Source of the DNA: an uncultured Gammaproteobacteria bacterium
Lineage (GTDB): Bacteria; Patescibacteriota; Patescibacteriia; Magasanikbacterales; JBBTXJ01
Length of the DNA: 64,000 nucleotides
NCBI GenBank assembly: GCA_964610305.1
Contig: CAZSVL010000005.1
Coordinates: 14,815 to 78,814, forward strand
Direction: 5' to 3'
Shown here: in pieces, positions 21,690 to 43,574 of the stretch
Numbering within the stretch: the stretch's first letter is position 1
Layout of the letters: the number at the start of each line of letters is the position of its first letter
Program-made: the position numbers and the translations under genes
The notes under the pieces: model-generated
What the model was told of the DNA's origin: nothing
Seen by the model: the letters and a program-made list of their open reading frames with translations, nothing else
Databases searched by the model: none

Positions 21690-21718
21690 GGACGCTGTGG
21701 AAACGCAGCGTTTTTTTA
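21690..21718 (+). terminator. intrinsic terminator ACGCTG-TGGAAA-CGCAGCGT plus T7
   Basis: Read directly. Confidence 0.6.
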
Positions 21719-21721
21719 TTG

Positions 21722-21749
21722 TTGACACCTATTGACACCTTTTGATACC
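21722..21749 (+). promoter_or_regulatory. three direct repeats TTGA(C/T)ACC phased at 10 bp (candidate operator/promoter) immediately upstream of the HTH gene
   Basis: TTGACACC at 21722, TTGACACC at 21732 and TTGATACC at 21742. The gene start is 14 nt downstream. Confidence 0.4.
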
Positions 21750-21762
21750 ATAAAGCTTAACT

Positions 21763-22020: not shown

Positions 22021-22833
22021 ATGCAAACTATTATAAAGCCAGAACGCTGGCTTAAAATTGATTTTAAAGAATTGTGGCATTTTAGGGAGCTTTTTTATAT
22101 TTTTGCGTGGCGCGATGTGATGGTGCGGTACAAACAGACGGCCATAGGTATTGTGTGGGCCATTTTGCAACCATTTATTATGATGGTTGTTTTTAGTGTC
22201 TTTTTTGGAAAAGTCGCAGGCATTGATAGTGGCGATATTCCGTATCCCATTTTTTCATATATGGGTCTTTTGTACTGGAATTATTTTTCTAATGCGCTCA
22301 ATGGTGCATCTGCTAGTTTGGTGAGTAATCAGGCAATGGTGCAAAAAATTTATTTTCCTCGTTTGATTGTGCCGCTTTCTGGTATTTTTGTATTTTTGGT
22401 TGATTTTGTTTTTGCTGCCGTAGTTTTGGGTGGGCTTATGATTTATTACCACATACCTCCTACCTTTTTGGGTATTGCCATGGTTATCCCTTCATTGCTG
22501 ATCAGTACTATTGCCGCGGCCGGTCTCGGCCTCTTCTTTGCGGCGGTTAACGTAAAATTCAGAGACGTAAGATACGCGCTGCCATTTTTTATCCAACTGC
22601 TTATTTTTGTAACACCGGTTATCTATCCAACCGGTGTGCTTGGAAAATATGAGTGGCTCTGGTTTTTAAATCCTATGAGTGGCGTTATCTCTACCATGAG
22701 AACAGCTATGCTGGGAACGGGCGATATTAATTGGGTGTTGTATGGTGGAGCTGCTGCAGTATCTGTGTTTTTGCTTGTCTTGGGCGTGGTGTATTTTAAA
22801 AAAACAGAGCGTTATTTTGCCGATATTGTATGA
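22021..22833 (+). CDS. ABC-2 type polysaccharide/teichoic-acid exporter permease (Wzm/TagG-like)
   Basis: Six TM segments. N-terminal YKQTAIGIVWAILQPFIMMVVF typical of Wzm/KpsM. GGGAGG SD. Confidence 0.75.
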   Translation: MQTIIKPERWLKIDFKELWHFRELFYIFAWRDVMVRYKQTAIGIVWAILQPFIMMVVFSVFFGKVAGIDSGDIPYPIFSYMGLLYWNYFSNALNGASASLVSNQAMVQKIYFPRLIVPLSGIFVFLVDFVFAAVVLGGLMIYYHIPPTFLGIAMVIPSLLISTIAAAGLGLFFAAVNVKFRDVRYALPFFIQLLIFVTPVIYPTGVLGKYEWLWFLNPMSGVISTMRTAMLGTGDINWVLYGGAAAVSVFLLVLGVVYFKKTERYFADIV

Positions 22834-24095
22834 GGCCGGTAATTCAAGTAAAAAATTTGGGAAAAGAGTACCGCAAGGGGCGGCCAAGTGGTTATGTGGC
22901 TCTTAGAGATGTTTTTGCTGGAATCTTGATGAAGCCGTTTAAGTGGTTAAAGATAAAGGTAAGTGCTCCTGATGTTTTTTGGGCGCTCAAAGACATTAAT
23001 TTTGAAGTACATAAAGGTGAAGTGCTGGGCATAATTGGTTCAAACGGTGCAGGAAAATCTACGCTTTTGAAAGTGCTCTCTAGAATCACCTACCCCACAA
23101 CAGGAGAGGTTCGTATAAAAGGTATGGTGAGCAGTTTGCTTGAGGTGGGAACAGGATTTCATCCAGAATTATCAGGAAGAGAAAATGTTTATTTGAACGG
23201 TTCAGTTTTGGGTATGACGCGAAAAGAGATTAGGAAAAAATTTGATGATATTGTATCTTTTGCAGGAGTTGAAGAATTCATTGACATGCCCATAAAGCGC
23301 TACTCAAGTGGCATGCAGGTACGCCTTGCTTTTGCGGTGGCCGCTCATCTTGATCCTGATATTTTAATTGTTGATGAGGTTCTTGCGGTTGGCGATGCGG
23401 CGTTTCAGAAAAAATCCCTCGCTAAAATGGAGCGCGTAACACGCACGCACGGGCGGACGATTTTATTTGTTAGCCACAACATGAACGCCATTACCCGATT
23501 ATGCAAGCGCGTAATTTGGCTTGATGAAGGAAAAATAAGAATGGAGGGTTCTGCCAATAAAGTGGTAGACGCTTATTTAGAAGAATATGGAGGAGAAAGC
23601 GCACAGTTTGAATTCCCTCAGGTGGAGTCAGATGAAAAGAAAATTGTTTTAGAGCGCATTGGGATTTATGATCATAATGGCAAGCCGCAACGTAAGCTTG
23701 ATGTAAGCAAGCCTTTTGAGGTAAGAGTGGACTACACCGTAAAGAAAGATGTGCAGGGAGGATATGTGGGGGTGAACTTTTTTGACTTGACCACTAACAC
23801 GCAGCTGATGGAATCGTTGGATGTTGACACTAATCCTTCTTTGTATATGCAGCGCCGCGCAGGTTCTTATACAAGCACTTTCAGTTTCCCCGCTGGTCTT
23901 TTTAACGCTATTACGCTAAAATTATTTGTCCACGCCGGAGTTTTTCCAAACACCAAAAATAGCGTGCACAAAAGTATGGGGGATTTGACCATCTCCTTTT
24001 TTGATCACAACAGCTTTGCCACAAAAGTCATGAGTGGAAGGCGAAAAACCAGCTTGCTCATGAAGGTGCCTACACGTGTTATTTCTCGCCACTAG
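22830..24095 (+). CDS. ABC exporter ATP-binding protein (Wzt/TagH-like) with about 170-aa C-terminal extension domain
   Basis: Walker A GSNGAGKST, signature YSSGMQVRLAFA, Walker B ILIVDEVLAVGD, and an extra C-terminal domain as in Wzt. Overlaps Wzm by 4 nt. Confidence 0.8.
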   Translation: MRPVIQVKNLGKEYRKGRPSGYVALRDVFAGILMKPFKWLKIKVSAPDVFWALKDINFEVHKGEVLGIIGSNGAGKSTLLKVLSRITYPTTGEVRIKGMVSSLLEVGTGFHPELSGRENVYLNGSVLGMTRKEIRKKFDDIVSFAGVEEFIDMPIKRYSSGMQVRLAFAVAAHLDPDILIVDEVLAVGDAAFQKKSLAKMERVTRTHGRTILFVSHNMNAITRLCKRVIWLDEGKIRMEGSANKVVDAYLEEYGGESAQFEFPQVESDEKKIVLERIGIYDHNGKPQRKLDVSKPFEVRVDYTVKKDVQGGYVGVNFFDLTTNTQLMESLDVDTNPSLYMQRRAGSYTSTFSFPAGLFNAITLKLFVHAGVFPNTKNSVHKSMGDLTISFFDHNSFATKVMSGRRKTSLLMKVPTRVISRH

Positions 24096-25455
24096 TATGA
24101 ACAATCCACTGATTTCCATTATCATCAGGACAAAAAATGAAGAACGTTGGATTACGTTTTGTTTGGATATGATTGGCAGACAAACGTATAAAAATGTTGA
24201 GGTTATTTTGGTTGATAATCAGAGCACCGATAATACCGTGGCACTTGCTCAAAAGTATCCTTTAAATTTGGTAACCATAGATAAGTATATTCCTGGCAAG
24301 GCGCTTAATGATGGGATAAGGGCGTCTAAAGGCGAATTTATTGTTTGTGTTTCTGCTCATTGCATTCCAAGAGATGAGCATTGGCTTGCTACACTTCTGA
24401 AAAATTTTGAAGATCCGCAAGTGGCTGGCGTTTACGGAAGGCAGGAGCCGCTTGGTTTTAGCACGCCAGCAGACCAGCGGGATTTGGTAATTACCTTTGG
24501 TTTGGATAAGCGCATTCAAAAGAAAGATAGCTTTTTTCATAATGCTAATTCAATGGTGCGCCGCAGTATTTGGGAGCAGTTTCCTTTTGATGAGCAGGCA
24601 ACTAATATTGAGGACCGCATTTGGGGCAAGGCAGTGACGCAGGCCGGCTATAGCTTGGTGTATGAGCCAGAGGCATCAGTATTTCATCATCATGGCATCC
24701 ATCAAGCTAATAAAAAACCAGAACGCGTAGCTGGCGTGGCTCGCATTATTGCAGAAGTAGAAGACCATCTTGAGTTGGATAGATTGCCGGTGTCTCTTGA
24801 TCCCAGCAAGCTTGAGATAATTGCGTTTGTTCCGGTTCGTGGCCTGCCAGTTCAGGTTGGTAATCATAATTTGCTAGAGCGTTGCATAAAGAATCTGAAG
24901 AGTAGCTCATGGATTAAGAAAGTCTATGTGCTGGGCGATGAGCCAAGTTTAGAATCGCTTTGCCAGGCAGTGGGAGCTCATTTAATTGTGCGCCCGCCAG
25001 AGCTCTCAGAAAAAGAAACTTCTATTGATCAGGTTTTGGCTTTTGGGTATCGGCAGGTTTTGAGCATGGGAGTGGTGCCAGATATTGTGGTCTACGCTAA
25101 TTACCTCTTTCCGTTTAGGCCGCCAGCGCTTTTTGACACGCTTATTCACGATGTTCTCTATAAAGGACTAGATTCTGTGATTGCCGCTCGTCCCGAGTAT
25201 GGACCATATTGGGCCAAACAAGAAGGATCTTTTGAGAGAGTGGATTCTGGCTTTGCTTCAAGAGAAGTAAAGCAGCCCATGATGCAGGGGCTTATTGGTT
25301 TGGGGTGCGCATCGGTCCCCAAGTTTATTAAGGAAGGATCAATACTAGGAGAGCGTGTGGGAATGGTTGCATTTGATGATCCGCTGCACAGCATAAAAAT
25401 AAACAGCAGCACGGACCACTATCATAAAAAAATAGCAGAAGTATTTTTAACATAA
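24076..25455 (+). CDS. family 2 glycosyltransferase with C-terminal cytidylyltransferase-like domain
   Basis: N-terminal GT2 (ISIIIRTKNEERW...VEVILVDNQSTDNT). The C-terminal half (IAFVPVRG...VYVLGDE...LIVRPPELS) looks like a nucleotidyltransferase fold; that part is tentative. Confidence 0.55.
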   Translation: MLFLATSMNNPLISIIIRTKNEERWITFCLDMIGRQTYKNVEVILVDNQSTDNTVALAQKYPLNLVTIDKYIPGKALNDGIRASKGEFIVCVSAHCIPRDEHWLATLLKNFEDPQVAGVYGRQEPLGFSTPADQRDLVITFGLDKRIQKKDSFFHNANSMVRRSIWEQFPFDEQATNIEDRIWGKAVTQAGYSLVYEPEASVFHHHGIHQANKKPERVAGVARIIAEVEDHLELDRLPVSLDPSKLEIIAFVPVRGLPVQVGNHNLLERCIKNLKSSSWIKKVYVLGDEPSLESLCQAVGAHLIVRPPELSEKETSIDQVLAFGYRQVLSMGVVPDIVVYANYLFPFRPPALFDTLIHDVLYKGLDSVIAARPEYGPYWAKQEGSFERVDSGFASREVKQPMMQGLIGLGCASVPKFIKEGSILGERVGMVAFDDPLHSIKINSSTDHYHKKIAEVFLT

Positions 25456-25458
25456 AAT

Positions 25459-26511
25459 ATGAAAAATTTTTCCATTTTTGGCAGAGAGGTAGGAGAAGGA
25501 CGGCCCACTTTAATCATTGCAGAGGCGGGACTTAATCATAATGGGCAAATGTCTATTGCCAAGGAGCTCATTGATGTTGCCGCAGATGCGCTCTGCGATG
25601 TAGTGAAGTTTCAAAAAAGAGATGTTCCCAATTTGGTTACCAAGGAATTCATGGATAGCGCCGACACGCGCTTCCCTTCTTTTGGGAGAACATACAGGCA
25701 GATACGCGAGTACGTAGAATTTTCAGAAAGAGAACTTCTAGAGTTAAAAGAATATGCGCAGAGCAAAGACATTGCGTTTTTAGCAACGCCATTTGATATA
25801 CCATCCGCACAAATGCTTGAGCGTATTGGAGTGGAGGCTTACAAAAGCGCCAGTCATAATCTAACACACCTGCCGCTGCTAGAGCATTTGGCAAAACAAG
25901 GCAAGCCAATAATAGCGTCTACCGGCATGTCTACGCCGGAGGAGGTGGACGGGGCAGTGGCGGTTTTGCAAAAATACCAATGCCCATTTGCGCTGCTGCA
26001 TTGTGTGTCTTCTTACCCAACAAGAGCGCAGCTTATTAATTTGCGAGGAATGGATTATCTGCGCGAAAGATACGGAGTGCCCGTGGGATACTCAGGTCAT
26101 GAGGATTTGGCTATGGGATACTTGCCAACACTGGCTGCCGTTGCACGCGGTGCTGCTATTGTTGAGCGTCACATAACATTAGACACTCAAATGGAAGGAT
26201 TTGATCATAAGCTTTCAGTGGACCCATCTTCTCTAAAAAATATGGTGCGCGACATTAGGCTAGTGGATACTATGTTGGGATCAGGAGGAAAGCAACTACT
26301 CCCAGAAGAAATGGTAAAACGTGATCAGCAGCGTGTCTCCATTGTGGCCGCTCACAGTCTGCCGGCAAATACCGTGATTACCCAGGACATGCTTGCATTT
26401 AAAGGCCCGGGAACAGGAATAGCAGCTTATAAAGTAAATGAGGTTGTAGGAAGATCAACAAAAGAATTTATAACAGAAGATACCCTTATTACGTTTGACA
26501 TGCTTGTATGA
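25459..26511 (+). CDS. NeuB-family nonulosonic acid synthase (sialic/legionaminic/pseudaminic acid synthase)
   Basis: RPTLIIAEAGLNHNGQMSIAKELIDVAADALCDVVKFQKR is the NeuB TIM-barrel signature. C-terminal SAF domain present. Confidence 0.8.
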   Translation: MKNFSIFGREVGEGRPTLIIAEAGLNHNGQMSIAKELIDVAADALCDVVKFQKRDVPNLVTKEFMDSADTRFPSFGRTYRQIREYVEFSERELLELKEYAQSKDIAFLATPFDIPSAQMLERIGVEAYKSASHNLTHLPLLEHLAKQGKPIIASTGMSTPEEVDGAVAVLQKYQCPFALLHCVSSYPTRAQLINLRGMDYLRERYGVPVGYSGHEDLAMGYLPTLAAVARGAAIVERHITLDTQMEGFDHKLSVDPSSLKNMVRDIRLVDTMLGSGGKQLLPEEMVKRDQQRVSIVAAHSLPANTVITQDMLAFKGPGTGIAAYKVNEVVGRSTKEFITEDTLITFDMLV

Positions 26512-27401
26512 GCGATGAATTTAGAGGGGAAGATTTAGCTCCGTTAGTTTCTTATTTAACAGAGTACAGAGACTGTCTTGTGTGCGGCAGTGATAACAAT
26601 GAACTGTGGGCTAGTTTTGGTGTCTATAAAGCTGTTCAATGTAGCGACTGCAGTTTTGTTTGGATGAATCCATTTTGTAACAATCGAGGACTCAGCTTTT
26701 ATTATAGAGATTACATTGGCAAAAGGCGGTTGTCTGATGGGAAGAAAATGGAGCAGCGTGCCATCCAGTATCAGGAGGATGGTCGCTTTTTGGAAAATTT
26801 TGTGAAAGAAGGAAAGCTGCTGGATGTGGGATGTAATGGTGGCTTTTTTTTGGCATCACTTTCATCGGGTTTTGATAAGCATGGGGTAGAGATAGACATG
26901 CACGCCGTCATGTATGCGCGAGAACATCATAGATTTGGCAGCCAAGTGCTTTGCGTTGATTTAATGGAGTCTCCATATGAGAATGAGAGTTTTGATGTTA
27001 TCACCATGCGCGGCACAATAGAGCACATGCCTAATCCGGCGGGCGCCATTGAGAAAATTAGCAGCTTGCTAAAACCGGGGGGGTATTATTACGTCACCGC
27101 AACCCCAAATGTAGACAGTCCGGCGGCGCGCATATATCGGGAGCAATGGACGCTTTTTCATCCCGTGCAACATATTTATCATTTCAGTCCGCGAACCCTC
27201 TCTATTTTGTGCGAGCGATTTGATCTGGAATTGATTGCGGAGAGTTTTCCGTATGAGCAGACGCCTTATGCTGATGTTCCCAATGATGTGTCTGCAATTA
27301 TTGATGCAAAACGCCTGCGCGAAGCTGGAGAATCGTTGCCCGTGAGTGGGCCGTTTTGGGGTAGTATGATGAGTCTTGTTTTCAGAAAGAAGAATTTATG
27401 A
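26508..27401 (+). CDS. class I SAM-dependent methyltransferase with N-terminal CxxC...CxxC zinc ribbon
   Basis: Motif I LLDVGCNGGFF and LKPGGYYYV. N-terminal CLVCGS...CSDCSF. Confidence 0.65.
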   Translation: MSDEFRGEDLAPLVSYLTEYRDCLVCGSDNNELWASFGVYKAVQCSDCSFVWMNPFCNNRGLSFYYRDYIGKRRLSDGKKMEQRAIQYQEDGRFLENFVKEGKLLDVGCNGGFFLASLSSGFDKHGVEIDMHAVMYAREHHRFGSQVLCVDLMESPYENESFDVITMRGTIEHMPNPAGAIEKISSLLKPGGYYYVTATPNVDSPAARIYREQWTLFHPVQHIYHFSPRTLSILCERFDLELIAESFPYEQTPYADVPNDVSAIIDAKRLREAGESLPVSGPFWGSMMSLVFRKKNL

Positions 27402-30443: not shown

Positions 30444-30444
30444 T

Positions 30445-35235: not shown

Positions 35236-35236
35236 T

Positions 35237-37115: not shown

Positions 37116-37116
37116 T

Positions 37117-38955
37117 ATGGCAGAGCATTGGTATGGTGTAGCGCAGGACATCGCAGATTGCAAACGCTTGCAAAGGTGGGGTAGAAAAAAGAAATTGACT
37201 ATTATTACCTGTTCGCTTGAAGCGCGCCTTTTTTTGGAGGACAGCGGGACGGAAACTATCTATGTATGGGATATATTTGATATGGAGCAGCTGATTGATC
37301 AGGCTTTTTTTAAGGCAAAAGAAATGACGTTGGAAGATGCCTTTGGTGATGTGCTCTATAAAAAAGCAGCAATTCACCGCATGCATGTGGAATTTTTAAG
37401 TCACGCTGTTGCTTCAAAGATGCTTGCTGATAAAATTGTTGCCTACGTTCAAGAGCGCGCTGGCAGCGTGGTGATCGCCAAAATCTCACACATATTTTTT
37501 GGTCCATATTTTCCGTTGGCTCAGAGAAAAATGCAGCGCAACCCACTATTGCTTGAGTTTATTGTAGAAGTCTCTAATAGAGAGGGTGTAAAAAATGTGC
37601 GCCAGGGAGTGGATATGTTTTTTGCCTCTTTGTGGGCTCCGGTTGTATACCGATATGCCATATCAAAGCAGATCATCTCTGATGCTATGTCTTTGCTGTG
37701 GGGGGCTGCCAGCAAAATAAAGACAATTGACGATTTGCTTGCTTCTCATTCGCAGGTTCATATTCTCAGTATTGGATGGGGAAGGGATTTACATAGGATG
37801 CTTTCTTTGTCAGAGTTGCATCAGGAGCTTGAGGCGTCAGGTAAAAGAGCTGTTCATGTTTTGTGGCGCCCAAAAAAATTATCGGATAAGGATCAGTCAG
37901 TCGGCCCAACATTACGTATTAGAGAACAGATTAAAAAGGGGGTTACGTATGGACCATCCATTTCAATGTTGGGTTTAAAGAGGTGGCGCACGTTGTTTGC
38001 GTTTTATAGATCAGCCGCGCATTATAAAGCGTTTAGCCCAACCTTAGAAAAGCTGAGTAGCTCATCGGTGTACCGATTAAATATTTTGTATAACGCCTTT
38101 TTTTCTTATCGTGAAACATTTTTGACATCATTGATAACTGCAAAAATAATAAAAAAAGTAAGACCAAAAGTCATGTTGGGTTCAGATAGTGGTGGGGAGA
38201 GTGCGCGATCTGAGATGATAGTAGCTCAATCGGCTGGCATAAGGACTGTTAGTACGCCTCATGGGTATCAGGCTTACGCCATGGAGAGTTATAATTATTT
38301 GGCTGATAAGGTTCTCACCTACGGAACAGCTACGGCCGGTATTTTAAAGCACTGTGGTGTTCAGGAAGAGAGAATTTCTGTAGTGGGGTCTAGTCACAAG
38401 CGTTCAGGAAAAAACTCTCTAGGGTCTCCCATTAAAGTGGTCATAGGAACACGAAGTTGGGGAGGGCTGTGGTCTAACTACAGCAGTGTTCATCCAAAGT
38501 TAGATAAGAATTTTAGGGAATTGCTTCATGCGCTTAAGAAAGATGATCGGTTTGAAGTCACCATAAAATCTCATCCCAACGGAGATTTGCACGGATATTA
38601 TGATCTATTAGTTGATCGTATGGGAAGCGACAGAATAAGACATATTGCGGCTGGTTGGAGAGCGGAGGTTTTTGAGCAGAAGTGCGATATTTTAATTTGT
38701 ATGGGAGATTGTCCAAGTCTCTATGTCTCAGCGCTCTACTTAAACAAACCTATAATATTTGTTGAGGGTTGTATGAGTATGACACAGAAAAAAATGGGAT
38801 ACGTGTACGATGGTTGTGCTTCAGTTGTTAGCGATGGCGGGCAGGCATATCTGGCTTGCCTTGCAGATTTAGCAAATGATGCAGAATTTAAAGACGCATT
38901 TGGGATCGTGCAAAATACTGGCAAGAGCGTGTCCAAAATATTAACGACATTTTAA
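37117..38955 (+). CDS. large hypothetical protein (612 aa), paralog of N-terminal 600 aa of the protein at 39752..42553; candidate glycosyltransferase by context
   Basis: Collinear similarity with the 933-aa protein: TPHGYQAYAMESYNYLADKVL vs IPHGYKAYAVRPYDYLARFVL; GTRSWGGLWSN vs ATRSWGGMWSN; KSHPNGDLHGYYDLLV vs KSHPNGDYHEYYDLIV; MGDCPSLYVSAL vs LGDCPSFFVTAL. No family assigned. Confidence 0.5.
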   Translation: MAEHWYGVAQDIADCKRLQRWGRKKKLTIITCSLEARLFLEDSGTETIYVWDIFDMEQLIDQAFFKAKEMTLEDAFGDVLYKKAAIHRMHVEFLSHAVASKMLADKIVAYVQERAGSVVIAKISHIFFGPYFPLAQRKMQRNPLLLEFIVEVSNREGVKNVRQGVDMFFASLWAPVVYRYAISKQIISDAMSLLWGAASKIKTIDDLLASHSQVHILSIGWGRDLHRMLSLSELHQELEASGKRAVHVLWRPKKLSDKDQSVGPTLRIREQIKKGVTYGPSISMLGLKRWRTLFAFYRSAAHYKAFSPTLEKLSSSSVYRLNILYNAFFSYRETFLTSLITAKIIKKVRPKVMLGSDSGGESARSEMIVAQSAGIRTVSTPHGYQAYAMESYNYLADKVLTYGTATAGILKHCGVQEERISVVGSSHKRSGKNSLGSPIKVVIGTRSWGGLWSNYSSVHPKLDKNFRELLHALKKDDRFEVTIKSHPNGDLHGYYDLLVDRMGSDRIRHIAAGWRAEVFEQKCDILICMGDCPSLYVSALYLNKPIIFVEGCMSMTQKKMGYVYDGCASVVSDGGQAYLACLADLANDAEFKDAFGIVQNTGKSVSKILTTF

Positions 38956-38984
38956 GCGCACTAAGCGCATGAAAAGTAACTTTT

Positions 38985-39761
38985 ATGAGAGCATATAATT
39001 CTGGCTTTGTTGACTATAACCCGCAAGGGCTAGTTTTAGAAATTGCTTCAGGGCTGAATCCCACCTTTGAGGCAGATGTATTACTGGAAGCAGACAGATC
39101 ATTTATAGAGCCCTTAACCAAACGAGGTTATGCCGCACTATACGGTGACGCACTGAATCTTCCTTTTAAAGACAAGAGTTTTGATTATATTAGCTGTTTG
39201 CATTTGGCGGAGCATTTTGAGAAGCATGAGTTGGTTCAGTTTTTTTCAGAGCTGCAGCGCGTGGCGTCAAGAGGGTATCTAGAGGTTCCCTCAATTTACT
39301 GGGAACTGATGGCCAACTGTGATGCGCCGCTGGTTGGAGAAGGGACTATAGATGGGCATCATAAACAATTGTGTTTTCTGCACGACGGCGTGCTGCACAT
39401 GATAAGGAAATCTGATGAGAAAAATCCAGAGCATCAGCTACTCAGAGCTCTTTTCTTTAATGCTATCAACGCTGACGCTACGGCGGAAAATATTGAGATA
39501 ATGATGATAGGATTTCAGTGGGAAGGGGAGATTAAGGTAGAGTTTCATGAATCTCTTGCGGCAGTTCCTGAATATTTGAGCAGAGCAATGGTCTATCGGT
39601 TAAAAAAATATGGCGAGAGTAAAAAAAGTAAGACACCGCTGGCGCGGATGATTCACGGATATCTAAAGGCGCTTAAGGATAAAAAAAGAAAGAGAGAAAA
39701 ATCGGACAAGCAACGGTTAAAAGGGCGTAAACAATTTAATATAGAAGATCTTTGCAGGTGA
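38985..39761 (+). CDS. class I SAM-dependent methyltransferase-like protein with Lys-rich C-terminus
   Basis: LVLEIASGLNP motif I-like; GDALNLPFKDKSFDYISCLHLAEHF is a Methyltransf_11 pattern. Confidence 0.5.
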   Translation: MRAYNSGFVDYNPQGLVLEIASGLNPTFEADVLLEADRSFIEPLTKRGYAALYGDALNLPFKDKSFDYISCLHLAEHFEKHELVQFFSELQRVASRGYLEVPSIYWELMANCDAPLVGEGTIDGHHKQLCFLHDGVLHMIRKSDEKNPEHQLLRALFFNAINADATAENIEIMMIGFQWEGEIKVEFHESLAAVPEYLSRAMVYRLKKYGESKKSKTPLARMIHGYLKALKDKKRKREKSDKQRLKGRKQFNIEDLCR

Positions 39762-42553
39762 TTTTTCAGGGCTGTATGAAATACGGTTTTATAACGGAAA
39801 CAATTGAGGATTGTAAGCAGGTTCTAAAATGGTCAGCGTCTGTTGGCAAGGCTGAGATTGTTGTGATTGCTTTGTCTTTGGAATCTTTTGAATATTTTAA
39901 GCGCAACAGTTCTTTAAAGATTTCATGTTTGCATATCTGGGACATAGCAGACATGGAAACTATTATTGATGAGGCGTTTGTTGATGCCGAGCAGTCATTT
40001 AAAGAATGGATGAATCTTTTTTCTGACCGTGAAGATTCTCTATTTGATGTTGCCGTTCAGCACCGTTTTCATATTGAGTTCTTAAACCACGCACATGTTT
40101 GCTTGAGTGTGGCAACTCTAATGGCTACCTATTTTAAAGAGAGCGGGTTAACGTATGTGGTGTCTGCCGTGCATCCGGTTTTTGCTGGCCCCTTTTTTCC
40201 TAATCATCACAAGAATATAAGACGCAGTTTTCTTTTTAAGTCCATTTCTTATGAGATTTTTGTAAGAAAGAATGTTTCCTGCCGTTTTATTGATAAGAGA
40301 TCTTGGTTTGTACTCAAGGCTATTCCCGCTCTGCTTTGGTTTCGTGTGATAAGTAGATTGCTAAGAGATGGGGCTATATTTGTCGTTGATAGGTTGCGCA
40401 AGCGCCCAACACTTGAGCGCATGTTTGCTGCGGGACCCAAGCATGCCGATGTTGTTTGGTCTGGGTGGGGTAATGATTTGTCTGTCTATTTCTTGCCTTC
40501 AGAAGTTCATAGGCTTTCTGTTGAAAGTGGGTACACATCGGTACATATGGTAAGCAGGCCACAAAAGCTGAAGGAGCACAATGCTAACTTTGTTAAGGAG
40601 CATGACAATCTTTTTTTTCATACGCCCGATGAGATTCACAAAGCAGTTTCACATGGTCCTCGGATATCGCTTTTTCCTCTGTCAACGTTGAAGCGGTATG
40701 TAGGATCATTTTTACGATCCACCATTCCTCACCGATTTCGCGCTTTAAAAAATCCTAGCGGCATGCCTTCTTTTAAAGCACTTCTTGCGCTAAAAGGATT
40801 TAGGTGCGCCATGGCATTTAATGTTTTTATTGCTTATAGAGAAGCCTTCTTTTCAAAAGAGCTAAGTCTGGCAATAGCTAAGCGTTTTAATCCTGCTTTT
40901 TTTGTGGGGACCGATAGCGCTAACGTTGCCTGCCGGGCAGAGCTTGCTGTTATGAATGCTCGGGGAGTAACCACTCTTAGCATACCTCACGGCTATAAGG
41001 CCTATGCGGTGCGACCTTATGATTATTTGGCTCGTTTTGTTTTGGCGCCTGGTAGTATGAGTAAATCTCTTGCGGTTTCTGTCGGCGTGCCTGAGGAAGA
41101 TGCAAAGATTGTTGGGTGTCGAGAAATAGGGAGAAAGAAAATTTATGACGCAACTAAACAAAAAGTAAAAGTTGTTATAGCAACGAGGAGTTGGGGAGGT
41201 ATGTGGTCTAATATGGGAGTTGTTCAGAAAGAGTACGATATTCAGCTGCGATCTCTAATTGAAGGTTTGTCAAAAAAGGCATCTTATGAGACCGTAGTAA
41301 AATCGCATCCAAACGGTGATTATCATGAGTACTATGATCTTATTGTCTCTGGGCTTGGTAGTCCATCGGTAAAACATGTTAGTAAGGGGTGGAAGAGGGA
41401 TTATTTTTTGGATCAGTGTGATGTTGCCGTATTTTTGGGGGATTGTCCCAGCTTCTTTGTGACCGCTCTTATGAGCGGGATACCGTGCGTTTTTATAAAG
41501 GGGACCATGAGCAAGTCTCAAAAGAGAATGAATTATTCTTTTGATAGATGCGCTTATGTGGTTGATGATGTTCAGCAAGCCTTAGAAGCTATAGATAGTC
41601 TTGCCTCTGGCACTGAGTTTGCACACGTGGCTTTGGATAAGCAGAACTCACGCGTTGATGAGCTCAGGGGTGCGCAAGCTCCAGAGGAGGTCGCAATGCA
41701 ATTAATTTCAAAATTTTCTATGCCTATCTCAAATGAGAGGAGCCAAAAAACAGATATAGCTCTTTTGCTTGTTGCAACCATTAACATAGGAAACAAGGCG
41801 CTACTAAAGCGCAATAATACCAAAGAGCGTTTGCTGGATTATGAGCAGTCATTGCGTTTGTGGTTGAAACAAAAAAGCATCAGTAAGATTGTTTTTGTAG
41901 ATAATTCAGCATACAGTCTTGATAGTTTAAAAAAGGTTGCGGCAGAGCATAATACGCTTGGCAAAGAGGTTGAATTTCTCTCTTTTAATTTTGTTTCTCC
42001 AACTGATTCAAATATTGCATTGGGCGAACTGGTGTCTATTGATCACGCGCTGGAGAATTCAAAGCTATTGAGTACTTGCGACTCTTTTGTTAAGATGACT
42101 GGCCGGGTATTCGTTCGTAATATTGATGCTATTGTGAAGGATTTAGATGCAGGCTTTCACATGGTCTCCCGGCTTTCTGAGAATTTAACGTATGTAGATA
42201 GCGCTTCTGTTATCTTCAATAAAAAGTTTTATCTTGAAATGGTTTCTGGTTTCTGCAAAGATGAACTTAAGAGAGTGATTGAGCGAGGAGAGAGGACTGA
42301 TATTGAAAGGTTGTTTGCAAAAGCCTTGCATAGAGGTGTTGCGCTAGACTACCGGTGGTTCCCCTATTCTCATGAGCCGGTTTTGCAAGGCATGTCTGGA
42401 ACAAAAAATATTTCATATGCAAAAAGACACAATGCCTACAGAGCACTAAAGATGCATGTTTTTGGGAGAATGTTTTATAGGCTTACCAGAACATCTTGGG
42501 GGGAGAGTTCTGGCCGCAGACATTTAATGGATAGGTGGGGGATAGAAAAATAG
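39752..42553 (+). CDS. very large hypothetical protein (933 aa): N-terminal region paralogous to 37117..38955 plus C-terminal domain paralogous to 29074..29991; candidate nonulosonate/glycan transferase by context
   Basis: Paralogy blocks as listed for the two partner genes. No recognisable catalytic signature. Confidence 0.5.
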   Translation: MQVIFQGCMKYGFITETIEDCKQVLKWSASVGKAEIVVIALSLESFEYFKRNSSLKISCLHIWDIADMETIIDEAFVDAEQSFKEWMNLFSDREDSLFDVAVQHRFHIEFLNHAHVCLSVATLMATYFKESGLTYVVSAVHPVFAGPFFPNHHKNIRRSFLFKSISYEIFVRKNVSCRFIDKRSWFVLKAIPALLWFRVISRLLRDGAIFVVDRLRKRPTLERMFAAGPKHADVVWSGWGNDLSVYFLPSEVHRLSVESGYTSVHMVSRPQKLKEHNANFVKEHDNLFFHTPDEIHKAVSHGPRISLFPLSTLKRYVGSFLRSTIPHRFRALKNPSGMPSFKALLALKGFRCAMAFNVFIAYREAFFSKELSLAIAKRFNPAFFVGTDSANVACRAELAVMNARGVTTLSIPHGYKAYAVRPYDYLARFVLAPGSMSKSLAVSVGVPEEDAKIVGCREIGRKKIYDATKQKVKVVIATRSWGGMWSNMGVVQKEYDIQLRSLIEGLSKKASYETVVKSHPNGDYHEYYDLIVSGLGSPSVKHVSKGWKRDYFLDQCDVAVFLGDCPSFFVTALMSGIPCVFIKGTMSKSQKRMNYSFDRCAYVVDDVQQALEAIDSLASGTEFAHVALDKQNSRVDELRGAQAPEEVAMQLISKFSMPISNERSQKTDIALLLVATINIGNKALLKRNNTKERLLDYEQSLRLWLKQKSISKIVFVDNSAYSLDSLKKVAAEHNTLGKEVEFLSFNFVSPTDSNIALGELVSIDHALENSKLLSTCDSFVKMTGRVFVRNIDAIVKDLDAGFHMVSRLSENLTYVDSASVIFNKKFYLEMVSGFCKDELKRVIERGERTDIERLFAKALHRGVALDYRWFPYSHEPVLQGMSGTKNISYAKRHNAYRALKMHVFGRMFYRLTRTSWGESSGRRHLMDRWGIEK

Positions 42554-42557
42554 AGAT

Positions 42558-43574
42558 ATGAAAAAAGAGAAGATATTTATTACCGGTATTGCAGGTTTTT
42601 TGGGGAGTCACCTTGCGGATGCCTTCATCAAGCAGGGATACCACGTAACCGGATGCGATAACATGATAGGGGGGTATCATGATAATGTGCCGCATGAAGC
42701 GGAATTTTTTCAATATGACTGTACGGATCTTCATGCCATGAAGAAAGTAATGGAAGATGTTGATATTGTGTATCATTGTGCAGCAACAGCGTATGAAGGG
42801 TTGAGCGTCTTTTCACCTCACTTGGTAACTAGAAATATAGTTGATGCCACCGTCTCAACGGTGACGGCAGCAATACACAATAAGGTAAAACGTTTTGTCT
42901 ACTGTTCCTCTATGGCTCGCTACGGAAAAAACAGAGTACCATTTACAGAGGATATGGAGCCGCGTCCGCAGGATCCTTATGGGATAGGAAAACATGCTGG
43001 AGAGCTCATGCTGCGTAATTTATCTGAGGTTCATGGCATGGAGTACGTTATTGCGGTGCCACACAATATAATTGGAGATAGGCAGAAGTACGATGATCCT
43101 TTCAGAAACGTTGCGTCTATTATGATTAACTTAATGCTCAGCGGCAGGCAGCCTATAATTTATGGTGATGGAAATCAAAAGCGTTGTTTTAGTTTTGTGC
43201 AGGATGATATCAAGGTTCTTGAAAAACTAGCATTTACACATGATGCTCACATTTTAAATAATGTTATCAATATCGGGCCGGACGAAGAGTTTGTAACCAT
43301 AAATGAGCTGGCGCAGGTTATAGCGCGTCTTATTGGTTTTGATTTGAATCCTGTCTACATGCCAGCGCGTCCGCAGGAAGTGGAATTGGCGAATTGTTCT
43401 GCTGATAAAGCAAGAAGGTGTCTTGGCTATAAAACCGAGCATTCACTAGAACAAGGACTTCAGGTCATGATTGATTCAATAAAACAGTTGGGAGTAAAAC
43501 CATTCAGATACCATCTTGATTTAGAAATTATAAATGAAAAAACACCTAGAACATGGAAGGACAGATTGTTTTAA
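42558..43574 (+). CDS. NAD-dependent epimerase/dehydratase (extended SDR; UDP-sugar 4-epimerase/4,6-dehydratase-like)
   Basis: IFITGIAGFLGSHL Rossmann; YGIGKHAGE YxxxK. Confidence 0.7.
   Translation: MKKEKIFITGIAGFLGSHLADAFIKQGYHVTGCDNMIGGYHDNVPHEAEFFQYDCTDLHAMKKVMEDVDIVYHCAATAYEGLSVFSPHLVTRNIVDATVSTVTAAIHNKVKRFVYCSSMARYGKNRVPFTEDMEPRPQDPYGIGKHAGELMLRNLSEVHGMEYVIAVPHNIIGDRQKYDDPFRNVASIMINLMLSGRQPIIYGDGNQKRCFSFVQDDIKVLEKLAFTHDAHILNNVINIGPDEEFVTINELAQVIARLIGFDLNPVYMPARPQEVELANCSADKARRCLGYKTEHSLEQGLQVMIDSIKQLGVKPFRYHLDLEIINEKTPRTWKDRLF

What the first reader, a model, noticed from the sequence alone, without database searches (positions are those of the whole stretch)
22021..43574. 21-kb co-oriented glycan locus for an N-formylated, methylated nonulosonic-acid-type sugar with Wzm/Wzt export
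Every gene from 22021 to 43574 is on the + strand with overlapping or abutting boundaries. The locus contains a NeuB-family synthase, a NeuA-type CMP-transferase, two DegT aminotransferases, a sugar N-formyltransferase, three SAM methyltransferases (one C-methyltransferase-like), four SDR epimerase/dehydratases and an RmlC-like cupin. That gene set is what you expect for a legionaminic/pseudaminic-acid-like di-amino nonulosonate carrying a formyl group and methyl decorations. A GT2 protein and an ABC-transporter-dependent exporter whose ATPase has a Wzt-type C-terminal binding domain are also present.
Basis: established knowledge. Interest (0 to 1): 0.6.

Follow-up and report, generated by a model that had tools for sequence, protein, structure and literature searches.

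The report
Two-module surface-glycan operon in a CPR bacterium
This is a real 21.5-kb operon for a cell-surface sugar polymer in a probable candidate-phyla-radiation (CPR) bacterium. It most likely makes two kinds of sugar, a methylated sialic-acid-like acid and separate branched, formylated amino sugar(s), and it contains two protein families with no known function.

Summary
Nineteen co-oriented, overlapping or abutting genes (22021-43574) encode Wzm/Wzt, a GT2, NeuB, a CMP-transferase, two DegT aminotransferases, an N-formyltransferase, three methyltransferases and an RmlC-like cupin. There are three SDRs, not four.

- The CMP-transferase is fused to a D-2-hydroxyacid dehydrogenase.
- Three "blank" genes are built from two unannotated domain families, each present twice.
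- An HTH gene (21763-22008) probably starts the operon.

The interpretation, a single N-formylated, methylated Leg/Pse-type di-amino nonulosonate, is only partly supported. No Leg, Pse or Kdo equivalog HMM reaches its cutoff. No 4,6-dehydratase, acetyltransferase or recognisable NeuC/LegG/PseG is present. The aminotransferases and C-methyltransferase most resemble NDP-hexose C3/C4 aminotransferases and KijD1/TcaB9.

In related loci the NeuB–methyltransferase–CMP-transferase–dehydrogenase core recurs with different amino-sugar modules. The best reading is therefore a composite locus with three parts:
- a self-contained module for an O-methylated ulosonic acid of unknown identity;
- a variable NDP-amino-sugar module (3-C-methyl, 3-amino and/or 4-formamido);
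- assembly and TagGH/Wzm-Wzt-type export.

This is a new variant of a known kind and of moderate interest.

The parts
21763..22008 (+). 81-aa helix-turn-helix protein.
   Evidence: ORF. The equivalent 81-aa gene in L002 carries PF12728 HTH_17 directly upstream of Wzm. A promoter-like site at 21722-21751 and a terminator-like hairpin at 21689-21714 lie just before it.
22021..22833 (+). Wzm/TagG-type ABC-2 permease.
   Evidence: PF01061, 56.9 bits. Galactan Wzm model, 63.9 bits, below its cutoff.
22830..24095 (+). Wzt/TagH-type ATPase with a ~170-aa C-terminal extension that is a probable Wzt_C carbohydrate-binding domain.
   Evidence: ABC_tran, 83.7 bits. Wzt_C, 26.5 bits, which is below the gathering score of 30.4, at aa 267-355. 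Best NCBIfam matches are the TagH teichoic-acid exporter (207 bits) and galactan Wzt (203 bits), both below cutoff.
24076..25455 (+). Two-domain protein: an N-terminal GT2 domain and a C-terminal degenerate cytidylyltransferase-like domain.
   Evidence: PF00535, 91 bits, aa 14-166. The C-terminal half has a weak CTP_transf_3 match (E = 0.0012, 19.2 bits, below the gathering score) and a collinear BLASTP match to the CMP-transferase domain (E = 0.05). An orthologue lies next to NeuB in L002 and L004. Short GT2s lie next to NeuB or the CMP-transferase in L005, L006 and L007.
25459..26511 (+). NeuB-family ulosonic acid synthase with a SAF domain.
   Evidence: PF03102, 247 bits, plus SAF. TIGR03569 NeuB, 318 bits (cutoff 400); PseI, 201 bits (cutoff 340). 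PDB NeuB, 9e-53 to 1e-45; PseI, 3e-32.
26508..27401 (+). SAM methyltransferase MT1, linked to NeuB. Probably O-methylates the ulosonic acid.
   Evidence: Methyltransf_23, 83 bits. Orthologues lie between NeuB and the CMP-transferase in L002 and L004. Other methyltransferases flank NeuB in L007.
27398..29077 (+). Fusion protein: a NulO-type cytidylyltransferase (aa ~14-236) and a D-2-hydroxyacid dehydrogenase (aa ~260-555).
   Evidence: CTP_transf_3, 84 bits, and 2-Hacid_dh_C, 165 bits. PseF, 146 bits (cutoff 206); PGDH, 169 bits (cutoff 454). GxGxxG, RG, E and PH motifs are visible in the sequence. The fusion is widespread at ~40% identity, including Leptospira yasudae, Magnetococcales and Flavobacteriaceae.
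29074..29991 (+). 'C-dom' protein, an uncharacterised ~245-aa family (copy 1). Candidate transferase.
   Evidence: No Pfam, NCBIfam or PDB match. 38% identical to the C-terminus of the 933-aa protein. The profile search found 941 representative clusters at E <= 1e-10, N-dom and C-dom relatives together; most of those listed are ~240-aa C-dom-only proteins. Elsewhere the family is fused to MTase, GT2+MTase or GT61.
29988..30443 (+). Short RmlC-like cupin. Probably an NDP-4-keto-sugar 3- and/or 5-epimerase.
   Evidence: PF00908, 63.5 bits. PDB RmlC, 8e-11; GDP-4-keto-heptose 3,5-epimerases, ~1e-8; EvaD, 4e-5. The catalytic His aligns with that of E. coli RfbC.
30418..31401 (+). SDR1, an NDP-sugar epimerase or ketoreductase. 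Not a 4,6-dehydratase.
   Evidence: PF01370, 144 bits. The motif is STSTIVG...YSANK, without D-E. PDB hits are 4-epimerases, ~1e-28. The real start is probably the ATG at 30445.
31394..32335 (+). SDR2, an NDP-sugar C4-dehydrogenase or 4-epimerase-like enzyme.
   Evidence: PF01370, 124 bits. The motif is STTSVYG...YAQAK. Best PDB hit is 6vo6, 2.5e-22. From memory, 6vo6 is C. jejuni Cj1427, a GDP-heptose C4-dehydrogenase.
32325..33494 (+). NDP-sugar 3-C-methyltransferase of the KijD1/TcaB9/TylC3 type.
   Evidence: Methyltransf_14, 135.5 bits, and the Zn domain Methyltransf_13, 37 bits. PDB 5t64, 1e-88; TcaB9, 4e-85.
33491..34567 (+). DegT-1 (AT3), a sugar C3-aminotransferase type.
   Evidence: PF01041, 358 bits. 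PDB 7b0d, 6e-92; WlaRG 5u1z, 1e-82; DesV, 2e-77; QdtB, 2e-77. PseC, 238 bits (cutoff 423).
34564..35235 (+). 223-aa protein, weakly 2OG-Fe(II)-oxygenase-like. Role unknown; possibly a sugar hydroxylase.
   Evidence: No Pfam hit. TIGR04324 'sporadic carbohydrate cluster 2OG-Fe(II) oxygenase', 47.8 bits (cutoff 150). Conserved in L002.
35207..36352 (+). DegT-2 (AT4), a sugar C4-aminotransferase type (perosamine-synthase/LegC-like).
   Evidence: PF01041, 335 bits. PDB 7b0m, 3e-69; perosamine synthetase, 8e-60. LegC family, 248 bits (cutoff 420).
36345..37115 (+). Sugar N-formyltransferase with the Rv3404c/VioF-type architecture.
   Evidence: Formyl_trans_N, 89.6 bits, and N_formyltrans_C, 35.2 bits. 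PDB LgrA F-domain, 2e-24; PseJ, 1.5e-20; Rv3404c, 1.9e-20 full length. The N-x-H...D motif is present.
37117..38955 (+). 'N-dom' protein, an uncharacterised ~620-aa GT-B-fold family (copy 1) with an invariant K-S-H-P motif. Candidate CMP-ulosonate glycosyltransferase; alternatively an NDP-sugar hydrolase or epimerase.
   Evidence: No Pfam, NCBIfam or PDB sequence hit. The AF2 model has pLDDT 87.8 and pTM 0.90. Foldseek finds a GT-B fold, with UDP-GlcNAc 2-epimerases at 1e-10 and GT1 glycosyltransferases at 1e-8. About 20 strongly matching (E <= 1e-97) full-length representative clusters. The family is found with NeuB and/or the CMP-transferase/dehydrogenase genes in all 6 related loci with usable flanks.
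38985..39761 (+). Atypical SAM methyltransferase MT3.
   Evidence: Methyltransf_11, 32.8 bits, over aa 52-97 only. An orthologue lies next to C-dom in L010 (212 bits).
39752..42553 (+). 933-aa fusion of N-dom (copy 2, aa ~9-650) and C-dom (copy 2, aa ~660-930). Candidate bifunctional glycan-assembly enzyme.
   Evidence: 34% identical to the 612-aa protein and 38% to the 305-aa protein. HMM hits: A2, 779 bits; A3, 274 bits. The only word-search match is the protein itself. The database copy is 925 aa, so the start is probably 39776.
42558..43574 (+). SDR3, an NDP-sugar 4-epimerase-like enzyme.
   Evidence: PF01370, 155 bits. LegB model, 114 bits (cutoff 475); GalE, 104 bits (cutoff 262). The motif is SSMARYG...YGIGK.

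Best explanation
This is a composite operon for an ABC-transporter-exported cell-surface glycopolymer, in a probable Patescibacteria (CPR) genome. It has three functional blocks.

(A) A self-contained ulosonic acid module: GT2/CMPt-like protein, NeuB, MT1, and the CMP-transferase::D-2-hydroxyacid-dehydrogenase fusion.
- NeuB condenses PEP with an ordinary, manno-type hexose. This is inferred.
- The product is O-methylated and modified by the dehydrogenase. This is inferred, and the chemistry is unknown.
- The product is activated as a CMP-sugar. This rests on domain-level evidence.

(B) A variable NDP-amino-sugar module: cupin, SDR1, SDR2, 3-C-methyltransferase, C3-aminotransferase, oxygenase-like protein, C4-aminotransferase and N-formyltransferase.
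- It works on an NDP-4-keto-hexose and gives one of two outcomes.
- One outcome is a kijanose/tetronitrose-like 3-amino-3-C-methyl-4-formamido sugar.
- The other outcome is two sugars: a vancosamine-like 3-amino-3-C-methyl sugar and a 4-formamido sugar.
- Enzyme classes are shown by homology. Order, nucleotide carrier and stereochemistry are inferred.
- The 4-keto intermediate probably comes from the Cj1427-like SDR2, or from a dehydratase encoded elsewhere.

(C) Assembly and export.
- The GT2, two copies of a new GT-B-fold family (N-dom) and two copies of a second new family (C-dom) build the chain on a lipid carrier at the cytoplasmic face. One copy of each new family is fused into the 933-aa protein.
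- MT3 may methylate (cap) the chain.
- Wzm/Wzt, whose ATPase carries a probable Wzt_C-like extension, exports the chain.

The nearest functional analogy in a single-membrane cell is a teichulosonic-acid, S-layer-glycan or O-antigen type polymer made by the ABC-dependent route.
For: Operon structure and full synteny in L002.

Block A:
- NeuB, CTP_transf_3 and 2-Hacid_dh_C are all well above Pfam thresholds.
- The CMP-transferase is NulO-type rather than KdsB-type.
- Orthologues of NeuB, MT1, the CMP-transferase and the dehydrogenase (380-414 bits) occur in L004 together with FdtA, DegT and hexapeptide acetyltransferases.
- In L007 (Cand. Uhrbacteria) NeuB, the CMP-transferase and the dehydrogenase (364-476 bits; the flanking methyltransferase matches MT1 only weakly, 51 bits) occur with a true Gmd (459 bits, cutoff 415), a C4-aminotransferase and methyltransferases.
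- So the acid module recurs while the amino-sugar module changes.

Block B:
- C-methyltransferase, 1e-88 to KijD1/TcaB9.
- AT3, 6e-92 to 2e-77 to C3-aminotransferases.
- AT4, 3e-69 to 8e-60 to C4-aminotransferases.
- The formyltransferase has the dTDP-sugar N-formyltransferase architecture and catalytic motif.
- The cupin and SDRs resemble the epimerase and C4-dehydrogenase/reductase set.

Block C:
- N-dom has a confident GT-B model and an invariant KSHP motif.
- That motif aligns with VKVHP, IKHHP and IKPHP of E. coli KpsC, KpsS and NeuS.
- Distant N-dom relatives hit Glyco_transf_4 weakly.
- N-dom and C-dom are fused or adjacent.
- C-dom is fused to GT2, GT61 or methyltransferase domains elsewhere and sits in a NeuB-less polysaccharide cluster.
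- Wzm/Wzt.
Against: - No glucose-1-P or mannose-1-P nucleotidyltransferase, 4,6-dehydratase, 2,3-dehydratase or 3,4-ketoisomerase is in the window. The amino-sugar route cannot be written step by step.
- No initiating polyprenyl-phosphate transferase or ligase is in the cluster.
- The identity of the ulosonic acid and the role of the dehydrogenase domain are unknown.
- The best structural matches of N-dom are UDP-GlcNAc 2-epimerases, the family of NeuC and LegG. Known CMP-sugar GT-B transferases were not in the top 50.
- The hhalign probabilities against KpsC, KpsS and NeuS are below 7%.
- The fold of C-dom was not determined.
- Formyltransferase-like genes also accompany short-NeuB modules in L005, L010 and L011. 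A formylated acid is therefore not excluded.
- The Wzt_C score is below threshold.
Confidence: 0.55

Rival explanations
1. One reading: a non-canonical Leg-like pathway to a 7-N-formyl (and methylated) nonulosonate.
- SDR2, or a dehydratase encoded elsewhere, makes an NDP-4-keto sugar.
- AT4 aminates C4.
- The formyltransferase replaces LegH.
- N-dom acts as the LegG/NeuC/PseG-like NDP-sugar hydrolase or 2-epimerase.
- NeuB condenses the free sugar with PEP.
- The fusion protein activates the product.
- AT3, the C-methyltransferase and the cupin make a second sugar.
For: - The top NCBIfam hit of AT4 is the LegC family (248 bits), and that of SDR3 is LegB (114 bits).
- The formyltransferase is about as close to PseJ, a Pse-pathway formyltransferase (1.5e-20), as to Rv3404c.
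- N-dom is GT-B and its best Foldseek hits are UDP-GlcNAc 2-epimerases (1e-10).
- N-dom is found with NeuB and/or the CMP-transferase/dehydrogenase genes in every related locus with usable flanks.
- No other candidate supplies a free hexose to NeuB.
- Formyltransferase-like genes sit beside short-NeuB modules in L005, L010 and L011.
Against: - All Leg and Pse equivalog scores are far below cutoff, and no acetyltransferase or dehydratase motif is present.
- L004 has the orthologous acid module and N-dom, but its only aminotransferase lies next to FdtA (so, by context, C3-type) and it has no formyltransferase.
- N-dom is duplicated here and is fused or adjacent to C-dom. That fits transferases better than a hydrolase.
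- The formyltransferase carries the C-terminal dimerisation domain of dTDP-sugar N-formyltransferases, which PseJ lacks (192-217 aa).
Confidence: 0.22
2. The ulosonic acid is only a chain-terminating cap.
- NeuB, MT1 and the CMP-transferase make a methylated Kdn- or Neu-like residue.
- This residue is added once per chain, like the beta-Kdo cap that WbbB adds in Klebsiella O12.
- The Wzt C-terminal domain recognises the cap.
- The polymer backbone consists of the amino sugars.
For: - The Wzt ATPase has a C-terminal extension with a Wzt_C-like match (E = 7e-6).
- A large multidomain protein (933 aa) and several methyltransferases are present, as in WbdD, WbbB and WsaE-type terminators. That comparison is from established knowledge; the domain data are.
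- An HP-motif GT-B domain is present.
Against: - Wzt_C is below the gathering score.
- The related Uhrbacteria locus L007 keeps the acid module, N-dom and C-dom but has a Wzy_C/ligase-like protein and no ABC transporter in the 22 kb seen. The acid is therefore not tied to Wzt recognition.
- Nothing measures stoichiometry.
Confidence: 0.15
3. The NeuB, CMP-transferase and dehydrogenase genes make Kdo or another 8-carbon acid, and the locus is an ordinary LPS or Kdo-containing capsule cluster.
For: CTP_transf_3 also covers KdsB. There are weak KdsB-subfamily hits of 41-49 bits.
Against: - The synthase is NeuB family (247 bits), not KdsA. The NulO-type PseF model scores 146 bits against 49 bits for KdsB.
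- No KdsD, KdsC or KdsA is in the window.
- The genome context is CPR-like, with no outer-membrane or LPS genes seen.
Confidence: 0.03

Closest known systems
ABC-transporter-dependent glycan pathways (O-antigen Wzm/Wzt, e.g. E. coli O9a and Klebsiella O12 WbbB; Geobacillus S-layer glycan WsaE; wall teichoic acid TagGH)
   Same: - An ABC-2 permease plus an ATPase with a C-terminal extension.
- All glycosyltransferases are cytoplasmic, and no Wzx or Wzy is present.
- Large multidomain transferases and methyltransferases that could cap the chain.
- The ATPase's best curated matches are TagH and galactan Wzt.
   Different: - The host appears to be a CPR bacterium.
- The transferases are two unannotated families instead of GT4, GT1 or GT99.
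- The Wzt_C match is below threshold.
- No initiating transferase is in the cluster.
Nonulosonic acid pathways (NeuBAC; LegBCHGIF; PseBCHGIF) and teichulosonic acids or Kdn polymers of Gram-positive bacteria
   Same: - A NeuB-family synthase with a SAF domain and a NulO-type CMP-transferase.
- A methyltransferase adjacent to the synthase. O-methyl Kdn and Pse-associated methylases are known from memory, not tested here.
   Different: - No 4,6-dehydratase, N-acetyltransferase or recognisable hydrolysing epimerase or PseG.
- Every equivalog HMM is below cutoff.
- The CMP-transferase is fused to an apparently intact D-2-hydroxyacid dehydrogenase, which has no counterpart in the described pathways.
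Branched-chain amino-sugar pathways of actinomycete antibiotics (kijanose KijD1/D2/D7, tetronitrose TcaB9, epivancosamine EvaA-E) and Holden-type sugar N-formyltransferases (Rv3404c, VioF, WlaRD, WbkC)
   Same: - A 3-C-methyltransferase at 1e-88 to KijD1/TcaB9.
- A C3-aminotransferase, a C4-aminotransferase, an RmlC/EvaD-like cupin and SDR reductase/epimerase candidates.
- A formyltransferase with the same two-domain architecture.
   Different: - No 2,3-dehydratase (EvaA/KijB1), no 4,6-dehydratase and no N-oxygenase.
- The context is a surface-polymer operon, not a secondary-metabolite cluster.
- The product carries N-formyl rather than nitro or carbamate groups.
C. jejuni capsule heptose-modification cassette (Cj1427 C4-dehydrogenase, Cj1430 3,5-epimerase, Cj1428 reductase)
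   Same: - The cupin-SDR1-SDR2 triad.
- SDR2's best solved relative is 6vo6 (2.5e-22).
- The cupin hits GDP-4-keto-heptose epimerases (~1e-8).
   Different: - Similarity is low.
- The substrate nucleotide and sugar are unknown.
- Here the 4-keto intermediate would be diverted to methylation and amination.
- The identity of 6vo6 as Cj1427 is from memory.
Leptospira-type O-antigen module: CMP-transferase::2-hydroxyacid-dehydrogenase fusion, small GT2, short NeuB, LIC12162-family transferase, MBOAT
   Same: - The same fusion protein (40% identity) with an adjacent GT2 and NeuB-family gene.
- A formyltransferase neighbour in L005.
   Different: - There the NeuB is ~230 aa without a SAF domain.
- The large partner is LIC12162 family (TIGR04331), not N-dom. 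No profile similarity was found.
- That module is itself uncharacterised.

Membership tests
Legionaminic acid pathway (LegB/C/H/G/I/F) | LegB NDP-GlcNAc 4,6-dehydratase | tested here: not met
   The best candidate is SDR3, at 113.8 bits against the TIGR04180 cutoff of 475. None of the three SDRs has a T-D/S-E dehydratase motif.
Legionaminic acid pathway (LegB/C/H/G/I/F) | LegC aminotransferase | tested here: not met
   AT4 scores 247.6 bits against the TIGR04181 cutoff of 420. Its nearest solved relatives are perosamine synthases.
Legionaminic acid pathway (LegB/C/H/G/I/F) | LegH N-acetyltransferase (hexapeptide repeat) | tested here: not met
   No hexapeptide or GNAT domain is found in any of the 19 proteins. 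A formyltransferase is present instead.
Legionaminic acid pathway (LegB/C/H/G/I/F) | LegG/NeuC hydrolysing 2-epimerase (Epimerase_2) | tested here: inconclusive
   There is no PF02350 hit. However, N-dom has a GT-B fold and UDP-GlcNAc 2-epimerases are its best Foldseek matches (1e-10, TM 0.5-0.6). The hhalign comparison with E. coli NeuC and WecB is not significant.
Legionaminic acid pathway (LegB/C/H/G/I/F) | LegI/NeuB synthase and LegF CMP-transferase | tested here: inconclusive
   Family level is met: PF03102 at 247 bits and PF02348 at 84 bits. Equivalog level is not met: TIGR03569 at 318 bits against a cutoff of 400.
Pseudaminic acid pathway (PseB/C/H/G/I/F) | All six enzymes at equivalog level | tested here: not met
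   PseB scores at most 25.5 bits (cutoff 408). PseC scores 238 (cutoff 423.5). PseI scores 201 (cutoff 340). PseF scores 146 (cutoff 206). No PseH or PseG is found.
Kdo pathway (KdsA/KdsB) | KdsA synthase and KdsB-type cytidylyltransferase | tested here: not met
   The synthase is NeuB family. KdsB subfamily models score at most 48.6 bits against a cutoff of 193.
ABC-transporter-dependent glycan export with a Wzt carbohydrate-binding domain | ABC-2 permease and ABC ATPase encoded together | tested here: met
   PF01061 at 56.9 bits (gathering score 26.9) and PF00005 at 83.7 bits (gathering score 25), in overlapping genes.
ABC-transporter-dependent glycan export with a Wzt carbohydrate-binding domain | Wzt_C domain on the ATPase | tested here: inconclusive
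   PF14524 at 26.5 bits, below the gathering score of 30.4, E = 7e-6, covering profile positions 5-92 of 143.
NDP-sugar 3-C-methyltransferases (TcaB9/KijD1/TylC3) | Zn-binding N-domain, SAM domain and C-methyltransferase C-domain, with full-length similarity to characterised members | tested here: met
   PF08421 at 37.3 bits (cutoff 31.3) and PF08484 at 135.5 bits (cutoff 23.5). PDB 5t64 at 1.1e-88 over aa 8-389.
Sugar N-formyltransferases (Rv3404c/VioF/WlaRD type) | Formyl_trans_N core with the Asn-His-Asp motif, plus the N_formyltrans_C dimerisation domain | tested here: met
   PF00551 at 89.6 bits and PF18216 at 35.2 bits, both above cutoff. NMHPSLLP and DTG are seen in the sequence. The equivalog NF005755 scores only 82 bits against 238, so substrate identity is not established.
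Kijanose / epivancosamine-type 2,3,6-trideoxy branched amino-sugar pathway | NDP-hexose 2,3-dehydratase (EvaA/KijB1) and 4,6-dehydratase | tested here: not met
   No such domains are found in the cluster or in the rest of the window. They could be encoded elsewhere in the genome.
Bacterial CMP-sugar GT-B transferases (GT38, GT52, GT80 sialyltransferases; GT99, GT107 Kdo transferases) - for N-dom | GT-B fold with an HP motif at the start of the C-terminal Rossmann domain | tested here: met
   AF2 pLDDT 87.8 with a GT-B fold by Foldseek. K484, H486 and P487 are invariant in 22 sequences. The motif sits after strand 479-484.
Bacterial CMP-sugar GT-B transferases (GT38, GT52, GT80 sialyltransferases; GT99, GT107 Kdo transferases) - for N-dom | Significant sequence, profile or structure similarity to a member | tested here: not met
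   The hhalign probabilities against E. coli K1 KpsC, KpsS and NeuS are 1-6%, although the motifs align. None of these families is in the top 50 Foldseek hits. N-dom is therefore not filed as a member.

The most novel reading that the evidence does not exclude
The conserved core (NeuB, methyltransferase, CMP-transferase::D-2-hydroxyacid dehydrogenase, small GT2) makes a not-yet-described modified ulosonic acid. The fusion enzyme is shared with Leptospira O-antigen loci and many uncultured bacteria. N-dom is a new glycosyltransferase family that installs this acid; it has a GT-B fold and an HP motif, and nearly all members seen come from uncultured bacteria, the one named genome being a CPR (Uhrbacteria). 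C-dom is a second new, widespread glycan-transferase family. The same polymer would carry a C3-branched, N-formylated amino sugar, a type otherwise known mainly from actinomycete antibiotics. That would give a first genetic blueprint of a CPR surface glycopolymer.
Probability: 0.35. Interest if true: 0.65.

Novelty: new variant of a known kind. Interest (0 to 1): 0.45.

Why it matters
- CPR (Patescibacteria) cells live attached to hosts, and almost nothing is known about their surface glycans. This locus, conserved in at least one relative and modular across others, gives concrete candidates.
- It exposes a widespread, uncharacterised CMP-transferase/2-hydroxyacid-dehydrogenase fusion that also sits in Leptospira O-antigen regions.
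- It exposes two protein families with no Pfam or PDB match that are tied to glycan assembly. One has about 20 strongly matching full-length representative clusters; the other accounts for most of the 941 clusters found at E <= 1e-10.
- It also shows that listing a locus's domains can wrongly merge two sugar pathways into one.

Tried and rejected
- A single-sequence AF2 model of the 612-aa protein was useless (pLDDT 36). The alignment-based model worked, but this left no prediction for C-dom.
- The word-based homologue search with the 933-aa protein found only the protein itself.
- PDB profile searches with N-dom and C-dom found nothing. Pfam scans of 29 C-dom members also found nothing.
- hhalign comparisons were not significant:
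  - N-dom against LIC12162 proteins;
  - C-dom against the GT2 and CMP-transferase domains;
  - N-dom against E. coli KpsC, KpsS, NeuS, NeuE, NeuC and WecB.
- Literature searches gave nothing useful for a NulO pathway with a 2-hydroxyacid dehydrogenase, for LIC12162, for PDB 7B0D/7B0M, or for formyl plus 3-C-methyl sugars.
- The NCBI record and organism name could not be recovered.
- Rejected: Kdo pathway; canonical Pse pathway; any of the SDRs as a 4,6-dehydratase; horizontal-transfer island. For the last, GC is 0.41-0.46 inside against 0.41-0.48 outside, and the cluster has the same chromosomal neighbours in L002.

Full report
**1. The observation**

- The ORF listing finds 19 consecutive + strand ORFs from 22021 to 43574.
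- Thirteen of the 18 junctions overlap by 4-29 nt, and the largest gap is 29 nt.
- Three TTG or GTG starts are probably too far upstream. For example, the database copy of the last large protein is 925 aa, not 933.
- Roughly 70% of the other genes in the window are also on the + strand. Orientation alone is therefore only about a 1e-3 event.
- The coupling, and complete gene-for-gene synteny in a related metagenomic contig, establish an operon. In that contig (L002) the fusion protein is 79% identical and the flanks are the same: UvrA, Gmk and RluD.
- GC content is not distinct from the flanks.
- The flanks are housekeeping genes: UvrA, guanylate kinase, pseudouridine synthase, ValRS and UvrD.
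- Several features point to a Patescibacteria (CPR) genome:
  - DUF5667 and a weak T4SS-pilin-like hit;
  - tRNA-Ile(UAU);
  - a ValRS of only 704 aa;
  - the only GTDB species representative carrying the N-dom family is a Candidatus Uhrbacteria MAG.
- The organism itself could not be named.

**2.

- Pfam and NCBIfam confirm:
  - Wzm and Wzt;
  - a GT2;
  - NeuB with a SAF domain;
  - a CTP_transf_3 cytidylyltransferase;
  - two DegT aminotransferases;
  - an N-formyltransferase;
  - three methyltransferases, one a sugar C-methyltransferase;
  - an RmlC-like cupin.
- There are three SDRs, not four.
That domain scores 165 bits, and its NAD-binding and catalytic motifs look intact.
- The Wzt_C match is real but below threshold (26.5 bits against 30.4).
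- Four genes have no Pfam match. One (34564-35235) weakly resembles a "sporadic carbohydrate cluster" 2OG-Fe(II) oxygenase.
- The other three are made of two domains:
  - The 612-aa protein is 34% identical to the N-terminal ~640 aa of the 933-aa protein. I call this domain N-dom.
  - The 305-aa protein is 38% identical to the C-terminal ~280 aa of the 933-aa protein. I call this domain C-dom.
- An 81-aa HTH gene (21763-22008) lies 12 nt upstream of Wzm. It is preceded by promoter-like and terminator-like sites and is conserved in L002.

**3.

- No equivalog model reaches its cutoff:

| Model | Score (bits) | Cutoff (bits) |
|---|---|---|
| NeuB/LegI | 318 | 400 |
| PseI | 201 | 340 |
| PseF | 146 | 206 |
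| PseC | 238 | 423 |
| LegC | 248 | 420 |
| LegB | 114 | 475 |
| PseB | 25 | 408 |

- No hexapeptide or GNAT acyltransferase, PseG or Epimerase_2 protein is present.
- The three SDRs read STSTIVG, STTSVYG and SSMARYG at the catalytic Ser/Thr position. They lack the acid pair of 4,6-dehydratases.
- The cytidylyltransferase is clearly NulO-type rather than KdsB-type (146 against 49 bits). Kdo is therefore excluded, but a Kdn-, Neu- or Leg-configured acid is not.

**4. What the amino-sugar enzymes resemble**

- The C-methyltransferase matches KijD1 and TcaB9 over its full length (1e-88 and 4e-85).
- DegT-1 is closest to C3-aminotransferases: 7b0d, WlaRG, DesV and QdtB, at 6e-92 to 2e-77.
- DegT-2 is closest to C4-aminotransferases: 7b0m and perosamine synthase, at 3e-69 to 8e-60.
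- The formyltransferase has the two-domain architecture of dTDP-sugar N-formyltransferases such as Rv3404c and VioF, and the Asn-His-Asp motif. It is equally distant from PseJ and from the gramicidin F-domain.
- The cupin keeps the RmlC catalytic His. It also hits GDP-4-keto-heptose epimerases and EvaD.
- SDR2's best solved relative is 6vo6 (2.5e-22). I recall this as the C. jejuni C4-dehydrogenase Cj1427. If that is right, the cupin-SDR1-SDR2 triad could generate and epimerise a 4-keto sugar without a 4,6-dehydratase.
- From established chemistry, C3-methylation needs a 4-keto sugar. A 3-amino hexose cannot be a NeuB substrate that cyclises to a pyranose nonulosonate. At least the AT3 and C-methyltransferase product must therefore be a separate sugar.
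- The product is one of two options, and the data do not decide between them:
  - a kijanose/tetronitrose-like 3-amino-3-C-methyl-4-formamido sugar;
  - two sugars, one vancosamine-like and one Qui4NFo- or Per4NFo-like.
- The 2,3-dehydratase, 4,6-dehydratase and nucleotidyltransferase are not in the window.

**5. Comparative evidence for modularity**

- A profile search of 1.84 billion representatives found 941 clusters at E <= 1e-10. About 20 are strongly matching (E <= 1e-97) full-length N-dom proteins, and most of the rest listed are ~240-aa C-dom-only proteins.
- None of these has a Pfam or PDB sequence match.
- Six related loci carry N-dom with usable flanks. All six also carry NeuB-family and/or CMP-transferase/dehydrogenase genes. 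Four of the six (and L008, which has little flank) also carry C-dom.
- The loci compare as follows:
  - In L004, orthologues of GT2, NeuB, MT1, the CMP-transferase, the dehydrogenase, C-dom and N-dom accompany FdtA, one DegT and hexapeptide acetyltransferases.
  - In the Uhrbacteria locus L007, the same core accompanies a bona fide GDP-mannose 4,6-dehydratase (459 bits, cutoff 415), a C4-aminotransferase, methyltransferases and a Wzy_C/ligase-like protein instead of an ABC transporter.
- So the acid module is constant while the amino-sugar module and the export mode vary. This is the main argument that the acid is made independently of AT3, AT4 and the formyltransferase.
- A methyltransferase is adjacent to NeuB in all three loci. 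This supports a methylated acid.
- The CMP-transferase::dehydrogenase fusion is widespread at ~40% identity. In Leptospira yasudae and another bacterium it sits with a small GT2, a ~230-aa NeuB without SAF, a LIC12162-family transferase and an MBOAT. I found no characterisation of this module.

**6. The two new families**

- *N-dom.*
  - With a 22-sequence alignment, AF2 gives a confident model (pLDDT 87.8, pTM 0.90).
  - Foldseek places it in the GT-B superfold. UDP-GlcNAc 2-epimerases are at 1e-10 and GT1 glycosyltransferases, MurG and HepE at 1e-8 to 1e-7.
  - K484, H486 and P487 are invariant.
  - hhalign against E. coli K1 KpsC, KpsS and NeuS is not significant. Even so, in each case it places KSHP on their HP motif.
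  - Distant relatives hit Glyco_transf_4 weakly.
  - Duplication, and fusion or adjacency with C-dom, favour a transferase.
  - The NeuC/LegG/PseG-like alternative is kept as the main rival. It would restore a Leg-like route.
- *C-dom.*
  - Elsewhere it is fused to GT2, GT61 and methyltransferase domains, and it lies in a NeuB-less Wzy-type polysaccharide cluster.

**7. Verdict**

- The locus is real.
- It is a new variant of ABC-transporter-dependent glycan synthesis.
- My confidence in the composite model is about 0.55.

Noticed in passing
window 21763-22008 (+): An 81-aa HTH protein lies directly upstream of Wzm. It follows a promoter-like site (21722-21751) and a terminator-like hairpin (21689-21714). 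The same gene, carrying PF12728 HTH_17, is in L002. It is probably the first gene or regulator of the operon.
   Followed up: partly
window 21071-21144 (+): tRNA-Ile with anticodon UAU, which is rare in bacteria. It lies ~0.9 kb upstream of the cluster.
   Followed up: no
window 43624-45738 (+): The valyl-tRNA synthetase is only 704 aa. It matches profile positions 1-696 of 860, so the usual C-terminal coiled-coil domain is missing.
   Followed up: no
window 24796-25455 (+): The C-terminal half of the GT2 protein looks like a degenerate cytidylyltransferase domain. The Pfam CTP_transf_3 match has E = 0.0012, below threshold, and the BLASTP match to the neighbouring CMP-transferase domain is collinear. 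The two-domain form is conserved in L002 and L004.
   Followed up: partly
L005 10001-13124 and L006 10001-13116: In Leptospira yasudae and an unnamed bacterium, the CMP-transferase::2-hydroxyacid-dehydrogenase fusion is followed by a ~225-aa GT2 and a ~230-aa NeuB without a SAF domain. A LIC12162-family transferase and an MBOAT lie nearby. This recurrent module is apparently uncharacterised.
   Followed up: partly
P0143, P0147, P0155; L017 8001-8732: The C-dom family is fused to a methyltransferase, to GT2 plus a methyltransferase, or to GT61 in other proteins. As a stand-alone gene it sits in a Wzy-type polysaccharide cluster without NeuB.
   Followed up: partly
window 55802-57279 (+) and 57281-58237 (+): A second ABC-2 transporter pair (ATPase plus permease) is followed by a bacterial-type phosphoglucose/phosphomannose isomerase (bact-PGI_C). 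The isomerase could supply hexose phosphates for the glycan.
   Followed up: no
window 826-2578 (+) and 10764-12896 (+): An ECF-type sigma factor is followed by a DUF5667 protein. A 710-aa protein has a weak T4SS-pilin match. These features helped assign the window to a CPR-like genome.
   Followed up: no
window 16334-19247, 48432-50632, 59473-61326: Several sizeable ORFs (305, 505, 343, 390 and 617 aa) have no Pfam match at all.
   Followed up: no
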